This document shows, one piece after another, positions 1 through 64,000 of a stretch of DNA of 64,000 nucleotides (positions are counted from its first letter, which is position 1; each line of letters starts with the position of its first letter). The DNA is taken from contig JBGAHS010000003.1 in assembly GCA_044226015.1 (NCBI GenBank), positions 768,001 to 832,000 on the forward strand, given 5' to 3'. Position numbers: made by a program. The DNA is from Candidatus Obscuribacteraceae bacterium. Lineage in GTDB: Bacteria; Cyanobacteriota; Vampirovibrionia; Obscuribacterales; Obscuribacteraceae.

Positions 1-3000
1 CTGGCGCGAGCATCGGCGTGGGAAATCTTGTAGTCGACTTCCTTGACCATCGGAACGTAGAGGTCGCAGATGCGCAACTCATCGACACCCAGAAGGCGCT
101 TGCGCAGCTCCAGGTAACGATGCAGTTTGGGCAGGTTGGAGTTAACCGTCGAGACGAGATTGCCGTAGACATCTACCGGGATGTTGTGCGGACCGAGCGC
201 AGCTTCCAGCGCCGAGCCGTACTTGTGCGCCCGGGCGAAGAAGATGTTGCCCTTCACCTGACCGGCATAGTTGGCCGCCAGCGTGTTACGCAACGCATTG
301 TAGGACGAATGCATGCCGGTGAAGCCAGCAATACGCACGTCGCGATTCTGGCTTTCCAGGAAACGCGATGCATAGTTGCCGTGAGTGAGCTGAACGTCCT
401 TGCCGTTCTCGTCCTTGAGCACGGGCAGTTTCAGGTCGGCGTTGTTGAGCATCTCGAAGACACGCTCTGGGGTCTGAGCCACTTCGGAAGCTTCCGCCAG
501 AAGTTGTTCCAGCTCGGCACTCAGCACATGAGGACGCTGACGGTCGAGGTCATCGAACTCGTGCTGATAGAGCTTGAGCTCCTTGTCCGCCAGCATGTAA
601 GCCTGAACGGTTTCCGGCGGGGTAGCAAGAAGCTCAGGGGTCATGTACGAGCTAGCGGAAGATACGCTCACGGAGAGTGTGCCAGCGCGAGAAGCCAGCG
701 CCTGGTATTCAGCGACAGTCGTGTCCTGATGCAGACGCATGTTGGAGTAGCAGTACAGCCGCCCAACGATTTCGCCGATTTCATCGCGAAGCTTGAGCGC
801 TGAAAGCAACGATGCCGCCGACTCTGCCAGTTTGCCCTTGAAAGCAGCAAGCTTGGGAATCAAGTCGGTAACTTTGGCGAAGTCTTTCTCCCAGTCGGCG
901 TTGTTAGCGTAAACGCTTTCCAGGTCCCAGGTGTCCTCAACGGCGAGGTCTGTTCGTTTGGGAATTGTGTGAGAACTCATTTTGGTCTCCTTTTCTGTGT
1001 TCATGCGCGAAAGCGCGAAGAATCCACCCTGACAAAATGCTAGCAGCAGCAGGCGCCAGGGATAATAAACCACGATCCACTCCCCAACAAAACGGCACAA
1101 TCCAAACTGCATTGCAGTGTGATTTTCCAAAAACAATAAAACTCGTTCTGGGCGGTGTGTGTGGATTACAGGGGATGGACTGTGGACGTCCACACGTTAC
1201 GGAGCTGGGCGAAGAGAAGTAAAGGGAGTTTTTTCTGAACAAACAAAGCCTACGCTCCCCTTGGCAGCCGGAATGCAAAGTATATTGGGCTTTCTGTCAA
1301 AGTCCCCGGAATTAGCTGGCTAGAATCTAACACCGAATATAGAATCAACAGATAGTAGAGCTGACAAAGCGCTGGATTTTATTGTCAATCACCAAGGCCA
1401 AACAACGAATGAAAAAACAGATTCTCTCACTGCTTGCCCTATCATGCCTGAGCATATCCCTGGCTCTACCTGTGATTTCAGAACCAAGTCGCAGCTCGGA
1501 AAACGAAGCTGCGATTCCCAAGATTACTTTCCCTGAAACCGAATTCAATTTCGGAGTTTTGGAAGAAGGCATTGAAGCAAAGCATACTTTCAAAATCGAA
1601 AACCATGGCTCAAAAGAACTTATCATCAAAACAGTTTTCTCAACCTGCGGTTGCACAATTCCAACCATGAAAACTAAGCACATTGCACCTGGCACAAGTG
1701 CAGACATGGAAGTTGTGATGAACACATCGATGAAGCAGGGTGATGTGAAAAAACCGATTGAAGTCAGATCCAACGACCCGATCAACCCAGTCTCCACCCT
1801 GTATGTAACCGCCAAAGTCACAAGTCCTCATGCCAATCTTGGTGAAAATAAAATAGCAGCGATCTTCGAAGGAAAATGCGCCAGATGCCACGTAGCCGAC
1901 GGAATTGGCAAAGTGGGAGAAGAGCTTTACGCCGCTGATTGTGCTATGTGTCACGGGTACAGAGCAAAAGGAATTCCTTCAGTGGCACCAACGCTGATAC
2001 CATATGATTATCAAAACAAGGACTTCGCCGCTGCATTTAAACACATCATTGCTTTCGGAAGCGCCTCTCATCGCTCAATGCCTGGCTATGCTAAAGAAGC
2101 AGGTGGTCCACTGAACGACAAAGAGATAGATTCTCTAATTGACTTCCTGCAGAAAAAAAGTGAGGAAGAACGGCACTACCAGCAGCTTATGAAAGAACAG
2201 GCAGAAAAGGAACAGCAAAAAACAGAAGAAAGCAAGAAAAAAGACGAGCCACCTGCTTCGAAGTAATCTCACCGGCTATTCACACGGCACTTAAGCGGAC
2301 TGGGATTCTAGGATTCTTTCTGAAAGTCCTCCACTTTCAAATTTTCCGCATCCGTCTTATCAGCTTTGCGTTCCATTTCAAGCCACATTTCTTCATCTGG
2401 ATCTGGAACTTTGGAGAGATCCAACTCAGAAGTCTCTGTTCTCAAAGAACGATGCGGCACCGTTGCTCCAGAAATTGCAGCCGCCTCAAATTCCTCTTTC
2501 ACACTGTTTCGACCTATGACTATGAAAGTGAAAATTCCCAGCAAAAGCCCAAGAGGAAAGTTAAAACAGTTCAATGCTGAGGCAACGATGATGAGATTGC
2601 GATGCTTTCTGCGAGCAATACACTTTCCTGCTGCAATAATCAAAGCACCATAAGCCCAGCCGGAAATCATCATCAGCAGCCCCATCGCAGCCATGGTCAT
2701 TCCAATCGTTTCCTTGACGAAAAAAAGACCCGCGACTATGTGAAAAAGGAAAAAGCAAGAAAAAAGCATGGACATGCCACCGACGACATAGTGACAAATT
2801 CGGAGAATGTTGAGCTGCTCCGAATCTTTCGCGTCCTGGGGAAGGTCTACAAGATTTGCCATGGCTCTCCTCTACACCCAAATTACCCAGCTGCTAAGCA
2901 GCTTAAGCTGAGTGCAAGAAAGAGCTCAGAATTTCAGAGTACACTTAGATGGAAAAGCTCTCCCCAGCAGGATAAATCGAGTAAATCATGTTCTGCACTC

Positions 3001-63000: not shown

Positions 63001-64000
63001 ACGCTGAATAGCTGTCTGGGAACGCAGGACGACCCCGGTGTGGAGAACATCGTGACCGACCTGCTCGTTCTCGGCGAGATGGCGAATTGCCGCCTGCCTG
63101 CCGTCGAAGCCCTCGACGCCAAGCTCGGAGGCAAGGTCGCCGCAGCTCTGGCTGATGTGAACTTCACCGGCCAGGCTGGCGAGAGCGTCCTGGTGAATGT
63201 CAATGACCCGACGGCGTCCCAGAAGTACATTCTGGTCATCGGGCTCGGCGACATCGCGCACTACAACGGACGCAGCGTCTGTGGCTTTACGCGCAAGGTT
63301 CTCGAAGTCGCCAAGGAACTCGGCGTCGAGAAGATCAGCATTCCGTTTTTCCCCAATCGGCAGACGGAAGAGAAGGTCTGTCTCGCCGCAACGGCAGCCA
63401 CAATGGTTTGCCGCGTGACGATGTTCATTCCGAGCCTTCCGAACCTGAAGGAAATCGAGGTACTCTCGACTCCTCAGGCTCGGCGGCATCTTCAAGATGG
63501 GCTGTTCGGTCGCACGCCGCGCTGCATCATCTGCACCAACCCCGAGTTGGGTCATCAGAGCTAGTTCGTAAGAACTGGCGGCGGAGAGGCTAACGCTTCT
63601 CCGCTTTTTCTTTTTATTTTGGTGCTATTAGCAGTAGTACTATAGAGAATCGCGAAGTTGTTCAGCAAAAAATAGCTCGAGCCAGCTTGTTATGAAATAC
63701 ACGCATTGCTAAATTCTGCGGTTCTGGAAAGTAGGCAGCTGAACAGTTACATATGTGGAACAGCTTTTGCTCTAGGTGCTACGATATTCAGTTTGCCCGA
63801 CCTGGCATTTGCTGCCAGTTTAGAGCACTTAACAGCGTTGGAGTGTGCATGAGATCAAAAGTTCTCTGGCTTTTAATGTCCCTGGAAATGAGTTTTGCCA
63901 GTTTGACGGCAGACGCTGCAATTGAGCCTTTAGGCGCGAAGACAACTATTTCAAAAGTCAGTCATTCAAGTAAGGTCTTGAATTTAAAGGAAGAAGCAAA

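What a model noticed while it worked through the whole genome (the two positions that open the first line are those of the whole stretch)
1..64000. A second, high-GC3 gene class confined to an origin-centred chromosome domain in Obscuribacterales
About 200 genes with GC3 0.62-0.94 (background about 0.45) are interleaved gene by gene with ordinary genes next to dnaA (C6:398-841 kb; dnaA at 816 kb) and in patches at C1:1.14-1.27 Mb, the end of C8 and the start of C9, and are almost absent elsewhere. They share one expression style (Shine-Dalgarno nearly always present, a hairpin after the gene, TATAAT-type boxes avoided) and repeat lipid- and protein-scavenging modules. Closed genomes of two other genera show the same mosaic around dnaA, so it is an order-level trait and not an assembly chimera.
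Evidence so far: 157 of 426 genes inside these regions versus 4 of 4555 outside have GC3>=0.62. Sampled 20-kb windows: G048 39 of 148 within about 0.7 Mb of dnaA versus 2 of 148 elsewhere; G016 25 of 103 versus 0 of 185. The FadD homolog has GC3 0.56-0.83 in 13 of 13 relatives, with 0.42-0.60 in their clpB/spoU-type neighbours; congeneric PrkA at 83-88% identity keeps GC3 0.71-0.76. RBS motif missing in 1 of 193 versus 17% of background; strong downstream hairpin 82% versus 22%; TATAAT-like boxes in 10 of 71 upstream regions versus 124 of 265 GC-matched controls (p 3e-7). The FadD-ECH-acyltransferase cassette occurs in the same order in three patches at 38-60% identity. Nearest ECH homologs form a 42-64% gro The finding spans contig positions 398161 to 841300; this window holds only 768001 to 832000 of it. 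[...]
(Added by a program. Inside this text positions count along the whole contig: contig position 768,001 is position 1 of the stretch shown here. "Call 12" and the like, gene names such as g00115 and contig names such as C1 are that model's own, and its searches are not shown. The text may have been shortened before it was handed on; [...] marks where a part breaks off. The agent that wrote the report below was given it as the finding of a first reader that could run no searches.)

Follow-up and report, generated by a model that had tools for sequence, protein, structure and literature searches.

The report
Second codon dialect near replication origin
In a family of uncultured, non-photosynthetic relatives of cyanobacteria, about 4% of genes (mostly for digesting and importing protein, fat and nucleosides) sit among ordinary genes near the replication origin but use their own, strongly conserved set of codons and expression signals, which points to an undescribed feeding stage with its own rules of gene expression.

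Summary
Real, and not a leftover of gene transfer. In G000, 224 of 497 genes in four patches have GC3>=0.62, against 14 of 4932 outside; interleaved neighbours are ordinary. Closed genomes of two other genera show the same cluster round dnaA (about 76/304 vs 1/215; 25/78 vs 1/166). New here: among congeners the class's fourfold sites diverge about three times slower than neighbours' at equal protein identity, and their equilibrium GC (0.64-0.76) stays above background (0.5). PrkA orthologues from 14 genera (44-100% identical) use AAA 6/632 and CAA 1/339 times but GAA 256/846, whereas ribosomal-protein genes use A-ending codons freely. Many operons carry a TTG-N20-22-TAGGGT promoter-like motif about 200 nt upstream. 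Corrections: the trait is patchy within one family, not shown order-wide; the C1 patch adjoins dnaA, but the C8/C9 block lies near the terminus. Best reading: an old, inherited scavenging/feeding regulon under continuing selection for a second codon optimum; why is inferred, not shown. No RNA data were listed. The scan noted similar two-class genomes before, in Patescibacteria (unchecked).

The parts
1..64000 (.). Part of the origin domain (whole domain: contig C6 398-853 kb plus C1 1.14-1.29 Mb reversed; -0.42 to +0.19 Mb from dnaA). 9 of 46 genes here belong to the high-GC3 class
1..1004 (-). Class gene: oligopeptidase F (M3), 5' part; GC3 0.70
9659..10405 (-). Two small class ORFs of no known family (GC3 0.68, 0.73), downstream of the M4 protease; second call uncertain
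10706..11728 (-). Class gene: M4 (thermolysin-family) metalloprotease, GC3 0.91; ordinary paralogues elsewhere at 57-59% identity have GC3 0.41-0.49
13989..16145 (-). Ordinary-class control inside the domain: FadJ/FadB-like enzyme, GC3 0.44 (class paralogue at C6:601 kb, 47% identical, GC3 0.72)
17834..19027 (-). Class operon: patatin-like phospholipase (18083-19027, GC3 0.72) and a 71-codon ORF (0.79)
19028..19226 (-). About 200-nt leader: pyrimidine-rich start, then structured part, then Shine-Dalgarno; typical of class operons (transcription inferred)
19227..19259 (-). Class promoter-like motif TTGCCT-N19-TAGGGTGA, 207 nt upstream of the patatin start
26611..31650 (-). Ordinary-class controls: Clp ATPase (ClpC-like, name recalled; GC3 0.47) and topoisomerase I (0.44)
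47684..50802 (+). dnaA (0.43), dnaN (0.41) and tRNA-Asp, at the GC-skew minimum (origin); the only tRNA gene in the domain
56005..57096 (+). Class gene: second M4 metalloprotease, GC3 0.91
57097..57266 (+). Class spacer: 16-bp hairpin with U-run, two further hairpins, A-rich stretch, Shine-Dalgarno; folding z = -6.2
57267..59339 (+). Class gene: 690-aa protein of no known family, GC3 0.80; nearest Atlas cluster mostly Melainabacteria
60894..61835 (+). Class gene, GC3 0.79, no Pfam hit; 28% identical to part of the class catalase/peroxidase fusion at C1:1181 kb
62353..63564 (+). Two class genes (GC3 0.75, 0.74); the second has an M17 aminopeptidase N-terminal domain

Best explanation
An old, vertically inherited regulon of Obscuribacteraceae for breaking down and importing protein, lipid and nucleosides (most simply: a feeding stage on prey or dead biomass). 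Shown: the genes are native, syntenic among congeners, cluster round oriC, and their synonymous sites are under continuing constraint towards a codon set that differs from the one used by ribosomal-protein genes (G/C-ending, A-ending codons almost excluded except GAA). Shown as sequence: a distinct promoter-like motif, 200-nt leaders, strong SD, hairpin-filled spacers. Inferred: an alternative sigma factor switches the set on in one life stage; the messages are long-lived and heavily translated; in that stage tRNAs with U at the wobble position are scarce or poorly active and A/U-rich RNA is costly, which fixes the second codon optimum; the place near oriC gives extra copies or access in that stage.
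For: Fourfold distance in genes with GC3>=0.75 vs interleaved ordinary genes: 0.20 vs 0.66 (G037-G030; 12 and 26 genes), 0.22 vs 0.73 (G034; 14, 30), 0.41 vs 1.0 (G029; 14, 25), at equal or higher protein identity; Spearman GC3 vs divergence -0.51 to -0.53. Non-stationary ML on 66 genes: equilibrium GC at fourfold sites 0.47-0.51 ordinary, 0.66-0.68 middle, 0.68-0.76 top; tree length 1.46 vs 0.6; rates towards A cut 3.5-7-fold. PrkA2 GC3 0.79-0.94 in 28 of 30 genomes, above the Clp control in 23 of 24 (median +0.35), tree groups by genus. Pooled over 14 genera: AAA 6/632, CAA 1/339, ACA, GTA, CTA, TTA, ATA 0, but GAA 256/846, GGT 0.31, CGT 0.23; ribosomal-protein genes use CCA 0.50, CAA 0.61, AAA 0.50. 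WWC-over-SSC translational signature 0.83 in class, 0.86 in ribosomal genes, 0.06 background, negative in ordinary high-GC genes. Glu is the only box where an A-ending codon stays common and no C34 tRNA was found. Class shares the host's GGCC and GATC avoidance. TTG-N20-22-TAGnGT upstream of 12 of 73 first genes (7 at 200-250 nt; 3 antisense) vs 43 of 3136; TTG...TAnnnT blocks conserved in orthologous leaders; tRNA promoters are AT-rich instead. Of 252 class proteins 113 hit Pfam: peptidases, patatins, beta-oxidation, importers, MoxR-vWA, PrkA-YeaH-SpoVR. mRNAs fold 8% better than synonymous shuffles vs 4%.
Against: No expression data at all. Recent branches show an excess of GC-to-AT changes in class genes (109 vs 48; estimated GC* 0.64 vs present 0.80) and stationarity is rejected for the top class (LRT 16.7): slow decay is possible. 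A plain GC shift explains 84% of the codon difference, codon-specific terms only about 5% more than a symmetric dinucleotide model plus ribosomal bias. GAG rises although read by the same tRNA as GAA. The G000-trained promoter matrix scores only 2 of 32 held-out leaders >=8; most class operons lack an exact motif. Orthologues switch class between genera (79% identical gene 0.85 vs 0.50; TldD/PmbA 0.80 vs 0.44-0.49). One block lies near the terminus. No tRNA gene has the class promoter; the G037 tRNA set was seen only in part (24 of 56).
Confidence: 0.6

Rival explanations
1. The class is read by machinery of another cell: either prey ribosomes, tRNAs (and RNA polymerase) taken up during feeding, or the origin-proximal DNA delivered into a high-GC prey or host.
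For: Codon set, strong SD, TAGGGT-type -10 and U-less hairpins resemble highly expressed genes of high-GC bacteria (recalled, not tested); PrkA GC3 does not track the genome's own level (Spearman 0.27, p 0.21); the domain holds one tRNA gene in G000 and in G037 and the ribosomal operon lies far from oriC; the class contains the predator Vampirovibrio (PMC4451040, passages); earlier scan notes report similar classes in host-attached Patescibacteria (unchecked).
Against: VirB4 family found in 2 of 67 f1 genomes and not in G000, G037 or G004; many products are importers and beta-oxidation enzymes that make sense in the owner's cell; genes lie on both strands; own 16S has a normal anti-SD and own ribosomal genes use SD; Obscuribacterales are not described as predators in the passages read (PMC4040986).
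Confidence: 0.12
2. A transcription-linked mutation or repair bias: these units are transcribed (and repaired) or kept silent in a state that lowers GC-to-AT mutation, so they drift to high GC without selection on codons.
For: GC-to-AT rates fall while AT-to-GC rates do not rise; changes that would come from template-strand lesions fall most; spacers between class genes are GC 0.52 vs 0.45; GC alone explains 84%.
Against: Codon-specific pattern (AAA 0.01, CAA 0.00 vs GAA 0.30; AGT, TGT 0 vs GGT 0.31) and WWC-over-SSC signature are not produced by mutation; protein divergence is not lowered in step; leaders stay A-rich.
Confidence: 0.12
3. An ancient import from a high-GC donor, shuffled by inversions round the origin and still slowly ameliorating.
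For: Excess of GC-to-AT on recent branches; equilibrium below present value in the top class; relaxed copies exist (genus g34 PrkA 0.67; G037 2.90 Mb cluster 0.50-0.62); amino-acid composition slightly GC-shifted; PrkA absent from other families sampled. An ancient foreign origin of the genes is not excluded.
Against: Equilibrium 0.64-0.76, not 0.5; fourfold distance is already 0.85 at 81% protein identity, so at 44-56% identity any donor signal would be gone, yet GC3 is 0.82-0.94; amelioration does not slow synonymous change; host restriction-site avoidance is shared.
Confidence: 0.1
4. Repeated integration of an unknown large phage or plasmid; or regional GC-biased gene conversion; or misassembly.
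For: Cassettes repeated in three patches; a 60-kb single-strand block of mostly small unknown genes.
Against: No integrase, transposase, replication or virion gene among 252 class proteins; 4 of 69 larger unknowns hit PHROGs, none structural; no relatives in viral contigs for two queries, no close phage hit for a third; gene order kept across five congeners; interleaved genes have background GC3.
Confidence: 0.04

Closest known systems
Highly expressed, codon-biased gene class (E. coli class II of Medigue et al.; Sharp and Li inverse relation of bias and synonymous rate; recalled)
   Same: Low synonymous divergence that falls with bias, WWC-over-SSC signature, strong SD
   Different: It is a second optimum: ribosomal-protein genes of the same genome have GC3 0.46 and use A-ending codons; the class is catabolic, family-specific and clustered round oriC
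Codon-biased translation by tRNA reprogramming: MazF cleavage of tRNA-Lys in Mycobacterium smegmatis (PMC7033543, abstract), hypoxic BCG (PMC5114619, listing), Streptomyces bldA/TTA (recalled)
   Same: A functional gene set marked by presence or absence of particular codons; AAA-poor messages favoured
   Different: Here all A-ending codons but GAA are excluded over about 240 genes, with a GC shift, own promoter motif and chromosome position; no tRNA nuclease or modification switch identified
Horizontally acquired islands under amelioration (Lawrence and Ochman; recalled)
   Same: Atypical base composition, accessory functions, repeated cassettes
   Different: No mobility genes, gene-by-gene interleaving, vertical descent, slowed synonymous change, equilibrium far above background
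Selective RNA processing and stabilisation operons, Clostridium cellulolyticum cip-cel (PMC4423207, listing and start of abstract)
   Same: Long operons of degradative enzymes with strong stem-loops between genes; 42 of 71 internal hairpins lack a U-tail
   Different: No processing shown here; a separate codon set or origin clustering is not what I saw described for SRPS
Synechocystis SigF promoters (PMC2532724, passages) and sigma-70 type 1 promoters
   Same: GGGT[A/G] core as in the SigF -12 element; TTG plus TAnnnT geometry as in type 1 promoters
   Different: The SigF -32 element [C/T]AGGC is not what lies upstream (TTG does); -10 middle is GGG, unlike this genome's tRNA promoters

Membership tests
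Genomic island / recent horizontal transfer | Mobility genes or insertion at tRNA with flanking repeats | tested here: not met
   No integrase or transposase among 252 class proteins; one tRNA in the domain
Genomic island / recent horizontal transfer | Patchy in close relatives, composition decaying to host level | tested here: not met
   Syntenic in five congeners; equilibrium 0.64-0.76 vs 0.5; some decay not excluded
Prophage or integrated large replicon | Virion, terminase or replication genes; relatives in viral collections | tested here: not met
   (three queries only)
Highly expressed codon-biased class | Reduced synonymous divergence that scales with bias | tested here: met
Highly expressed codon-biased class | Same optimal codons as ribosomal-protein genes | tested here: not met
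   CCA 0.50 vs 0.06, CAA 0.61 vs 0.22, AAA 0.50 vs 0.20 (ribosomal vs class); shared only for WWC
Highly expressed codon-biased class | Measured high expression | not testable with these tools
   no RNA run was listed
tRNA-reprogramming regulon (MazF-tRNA, bldA type) | Gene set defined by avoidance of specific codons | tested here: met
tRNA-reprogramming regulon (MazF-tRNA, bldA type) | A stage-specific change in tRNA level, cleavage or modification | not testable with these tools
   tRNA genes have ordinary promoters; no tRNA-seq
SigF / sigma-B type regulon | -12 element GGGT[A/G] | tested here: inconclusive
   TAGGGT upstream of 15 of 73 first genes, 10 of 16 sites at 150-250 nt, vs 120 of 3136; start sites not mapped
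SigF / sigma-B type regulon | -32 element [C/T]AGGC | tested here: not met
   TTG found 20-22 nt upstream instead
SRPS operon | Intergenic stem-loops in polycistronic units | tested here: met
   71 of 121 class-to-class spacers vs 22 of 200 ordinary
SRPS operon | RNase processing sites and graded transcript levels | not testable with these tools
   needs RNA end mapping
T-DNA-like genes for a foreign cell (T4SS-delivered) | VirB4-type T4SS in carriers of the class | tested here: not met
   PF03135 in 2 of 67 f1 genomes; other delivery systems not tested
Regional GC-biased gene conversion | All genes of the region shifted alike | tested here: not met
   interleaved genes 0.459 vs 0.451

The most novel reading that the evidence does not exclude
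Obscuribacteraceae are predators whose feeding programme is translated with ribosomes and tRNAs taken from, or located in, high-GC prey; the origin-proximal part of the chromosome is therefore written in the prey's codon and signal dialect, and the same trick evolved separately in Patescibacteria.
Probability: 0.12. Interest if true: 0.97.

Novelty: new variant of a known kind. Interest (0 to 1): 0.78.

Why it matters
Bacterial codon theory assumes one translational optimum per genome, set by the growth machinery, and reads genes of deviant GC as imports. Here about 240 native genes obey a second, near-absolute codon rule that has lasted across genera only 44-56% identical in protein. It marks, from sequence alone, a hidden life stage and its gene set in an uncultured lineage found in activated sludge and lake samples, names a promoter motif and candidate sigma factors, and gives a natural test of whether stage-specific tRNA pools (or borrowed ones) can shape genomes. 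It also warns that composition-based island finders and binners would mislabel such genes.

Tried and rejected
RNA evidence: no RNA holder listed; no reads laid. Within-species polymorphism: the metagenome scan gave 7 loci, two identical to G030/G025, two new species at 93-95%, none usable as strains. Domain-marking DNA sites: the top k-mer was a tandem repeat inside one gene; the palindrome GATCGATATCGATC is confined to C1:1.09-1.21 Mb but occurs 19 times in G000 and 0-2 times in 19 other genomes, one of several local repeat families, so rejected as a domain anchor. No parS-like cluster with a recalled consensus. Avoidance of cryptic -10 boxes as main cause: TAnnnT is depleted on both strands in class genes (0.79) but also in ordinary genes (0.91), and the gap is small in G037 and G004. 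Rho-dependent leaders: Rho not found in G000, 92% complete. The C10 tRNA array as the class's tRNA source: it carries mostly U34 anticodons, the ones the class avoids. General-stress regulon: a stress-like cluster with Ku-like and CBS-like genes (names by eye) at C1:1.03-1.09 Mb has ordinary GC3. The Clp control tree did not finish, so congruence with a species tree was not tested; the PrkA tree is the quick method. The window L034 taken for a ribosomal operon was not one. Homologues of the C8/C9 block in five congeners were scattered short matches, position unresolved. Small tandem membrane family: 10 representatives in 1.84 billion proteins, no name; two large unknowns gave only weak Atlas leads. 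The tRNA set of the closed genome G037 remains seen only in part (24 of 56), and its terminus region was not sampled densely. Literature: searches listed no paper on this class; the library lacks most subscription papers, and no supplements were opened.
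Full report
Question.

Observation. I laid the genome, wrote a two-model gene caller and counted: 224 of 497 genes of at least 100 codons in four patches have GC3 of 0.62 or more, against 14 of 4932 outside; the patch borders were drawn after seeing the data, and the outside cases are mostly low-complexity miscalls by inspection. 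Ordinary genes inside the patches are at background (0.459 vs 0.451). In the window 9 of 46 genes belong to the class; dnaA and dnaN sit at the skew minimum and are ordinary. SD motifs (170 of 206 vs 181 of 414) and hairpins after the stop (110 of 192 vs 22 of 200; 1 of 392 in shuffles) are enriched as reported.

Where the patches lie. The end of C6 and the end of C1 share a repeat in opposite sense, so the C1 patch continues the domain to the right of dnaA; joined, class genes run from -0.42 to +0.19 Mb with 5-29 per 50 kb and almost none beyond. C8 end and C9 start form one block of about 60 kb with all genes on one strand; C9 holds the plus-to-minus skew switch at about 120-130 kb, so this block is near the terminus (inference from skew; the assembly is not closed). 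The domain holds one of the genome's 72 tRNA genes; in G037 one of 56 lies between 1.25 and 3.44 Mb, and the ribosomal operon is at 5.19 Mb, far from dnaA at 2.58 Mb.

Relatives. In closed G037 (genus g15) about 76 of 304 genes in windows at 1.68-3.17 Mb are in the class against 1 of 215 elsewhere (twelve windows evenly spaced, twenty placed near dnaA afterwards). In closed G004 (g2) 25 of 78 at 2.45-2.97 Mb against 1 of 166. Against generality: G040 1 of 54 near dnaA, G013 only values up to 0.69 on a 0.52 background, G076 background about 0.6 with values of 0.85 or more in one of 13 windows. The class PrkA is found in 46 of 77 genomes of family f1 and in none of 173 other genomes of the class sampled. 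The trait is thus family-level and patchy.

What the genes encode. Of 252 class proteins 113 hit Pfam: peptidases M3, M4, M17, M29, M41, M48, M50, S41, TldD/PmbA, rhomboid; serpins; patatins, a phospholipase D domain, acyltransferases; FadD, enoyl-CoA hydratase, acyl-CoA dehydrogenase, thiolase; ABC-D-type, peptide, amino-acid and nucleoside importers; nucleoside salvage; MoxR-vWA-TPR modules; PrkA-YeaH-SpoVR. No integrase, transposase, replication or virion family. Of the 69 proteins rescanned (mostly the larger unknowns), 4 hit PHROGs (none structural) and 1 NCBIfam weakly. 48% have a signal or membrane segment against 28-34%. The same families have ordinary paralogues at like identity (M4 protease 0.91 vs 0.42-0.49 at 57-60%), and orthologues can switch class between genera, so class follows the transcription unit, not the protein family.

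The decisive test: is the composition kept or fading? I took four 20-kb stretches of G037 and their orthologues in five congeners. Fourfold-site distance for genes with GC3 of 0.75 or more is 0.20 vs 0.66 for interleaved ordinary genes (G030), 0.22 vs 0.73 (G034), 0.41 vs 1.0 (G029), with median protein identity equal or higher; for the closest pair the trend is weak (p 0.06). Ribosomal genes diverge still less but at GC3 about 0.5. A non-stationary likelihood model (66 genes, classed by non-fourfold sites) gives equilibrium GC 0.47-0.51 for ordinary, 0.66-0.68 for middle and 0.68-0.76 for top genes, with tree length 1.46 vs 0.6. Against my reading: stationarity is rejected for the top class, and on the shortest branches class genes show 109 GC-to-AT against 48 AT-to-GC changes (GC* 0.64 vs 0.80 now); parsimony bias and not-yet-purged variants give such an excess (recalled), but slow decay in g15 is possible. 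At depth the case is clear: fourfold distance is 0.85 at 81% protein identity, yet PrkA2 orthologues 44-88% identical keep GC3 0.79-0.94 in 28 of the 30 best-scoring of 47 genomes (genus g34: 0.67-0.68), above the Clp control in 23 of 24, and group by genus in a quick tree (the control tree did not finish). The class also shares the host's GGCC and GATC avoidance. Amelioration, regional gene conversion and misassembly fail these tests.

What is selected. Pooled over one PrkA2 from each of 14 genera (g34 left out and shown apart): AAA 6 of 632, CAA 1 of 339, ACA, GTA, CTA, TTA, ATA 0, CCA 2, TCA, AGA, CGA 1 each, but GAA 256 of 846, GGT 0.31, CGT 0.23, GCT 0.17. Ribosomal-protein genes of G000 use CCA 0.50, CAA 0.61, AAA 0.50, GAA 0.77. 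The class has the WWC-over-SSC signature of heavily translated genes (0.83; ribosomal 0.86; background 0.06; ordinary high-GC genes -0.5 to -0.6). No Glu-CUC or Gly-CCC tRNA was found in G000 or in 24 of 56 tRNAs of G037, while Ala-CGC was found in G037; this fits retention of GAA and the flat GGG, if U34 tRNAs are avoided where a C34 or G34 one exists. But over the whole class a plain GC term explains 84% of the codon shift, symmetric dinucleotides plus ribosomal bias 93%, codon terms 97.5%, so a base-level pressure acts too. Class mRNAs fold 8% better than synonymous shuffles against 4% (60 genes each) and avoid TA at codon junctions (0.32 vs 0.60).

Expression signals. Upstream of first genes the 7-mer TAGGGTG occurs in 13 of 97 regions, 0.7 expected. 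The bipartite form TTG-N20-22-TAGnGT is in 12 of 73 (3 antisense; 7 at 200-250 nt from the start) against 43 of 3136 ordinary regions (the pattern was derived from these regions). It recurs at like distance in G037 and G004, but a G000-trained matrix scores only 2 of 32 held-out regions highly; orthologous leaders in g15 conserve TTG...TAnnnT blocks 200-280 nt upstream with varied middles. tRNA promoters of G000 have AT-rich -10 boxes. The GGGT[A/G] core matches the -12 element of Synechocystis SigF, the upstream element does not (PMC2532724, passages). G000 has 17 sigma-70-family genes, none in the patches. Spacers between class genes hold one to several perfect GC hairpins, an A-rich stretch and a strong SD; 42 of 71 internal hairpins lack a U-tail, as in processing or stabilising stem-loops (compare PMC4423207, listing only).

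How it most likely works. Shown: native regulon-like set, origin clustering, lasting synonymous constraint towards a second codon set, distinct signals in sequence. Inferred: an alternative sigma turns the set on when prey or biomass is digested; long leaders and hairpins make stable messages; translation in that state disfavours U34-read and A/U-rich codons, in the manner of tRNA-gated translation in mycobacteria (PMC7033543, abstract; PMC5114619, listing); origin proximity supplies dosage or access (recalled analogies: fast-growth gene dosage, Bacillus forespore capture). I give this 0.6, with about 0.8 for 'native and selected' alone. Rivals: reading by prey machinery 0.12 (the class holds the predator Vampirovibrio, PMC4451040, passages; but VirB4 is in 2 of 67 genomes, and Obscuribacter is described as a feast-famine heterotroph, PMC4040986, passages); transcription-linked mutation bias 0.12; ancient import still fading 0.10; integrating replicon 0.04.

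Novelty. Six literature searches listed nothing on this class; the library is incomplete and no supplements were read. It works like a highly expressed codon-biased class and like tRNA-gated regulons, but fails membership of the first on its optimal codons and is untested for the second. Verdict: new variant of a known kind, at its edge; interest 0.78.

Noticed in passing
G000 C1:1,092,000-1,207,200 (outside the window): A 14-20 bp palindrome centred on GATCGATATCGATC repeated in intergenic pairs 62 or 116 bp apart, 19 exact copies confined to 115 kb; other repeat families are likewise confined to single regions (C7 600-800 kb, C11 ends, C4 start). Locally spreading REP- or MITE-like elements; absent from congeners.
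   Followed up: partly
G000 C10:356,333-358,584: Array of about 18 tRNA genes, mostly with U34 anticodons, like the cyanobacterial trn array (recalled); G037 has clusters at 4.525 and 4.830 Mb. It holds the only Ser-TGA tRNA found in G000.
   Followed up: partly
G000 C6:644,360-648,196 (L011) and C9:17,629-19,309 (L027): Tandem arrays of alternating ~110-aa and ~155-aa membrane proteins of no known family inside class operons; only 10 representatives among 1.84 billion proteins.
   Followed up: partly
G000 C12:174,215-250,547; C9:40,468-71,392; C11:1,335,351; C12:494,476: Giant ORFs of 14,391, 10,867, 8,120, 6,329 and two of about 5,080 codons; the last pair directly flanks the C9 class block.
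   Followed up: no
L068 (G037:2.90-2.92 Mb): A run of homologues of class modules (beta-oxidation, Bax1-I, holin-like) on one strand with GC3 only 0.50-0.62: a relaxed or decayed class cluster; genus g34 shows the same for PrkA.
   Followed up: partly
L240:10004-10124: A high-GC contig of another organism (GGCC not avoided) ends in 121 bp identical to a G037 class gene; probably an assembly chimera.
   Followed up: partly
G000 C1:1,030,000-1,085,000: Cluster of stress-type genes (Ku-like, CBS-like, by eye) with a sigma factor just outside the right edge of the domain; ordinary GC3.
   Followed up: no
G000 C2: 70-kb circular contig (140-bp terminal overlap), probably a plasmid, with a sigma-like gene and a tRNA-Leu-like hit; no class genes.
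   Followed up: no
G000 C6:627,500-628,000: About 21 tandem 21-bp coding repeats inside one ordinary gene; gave a false k-mer signal.
   Followed up: yes
class genes, whole genome: TAG and TAA triplets are depleted out of frame on the sense strand only (0.54-0.61 and 0.63-0.82 of shuffles in three genomes), and TAG is rare as stop (38 of 238 vs 34%); unexplained.
   Followed up: partly
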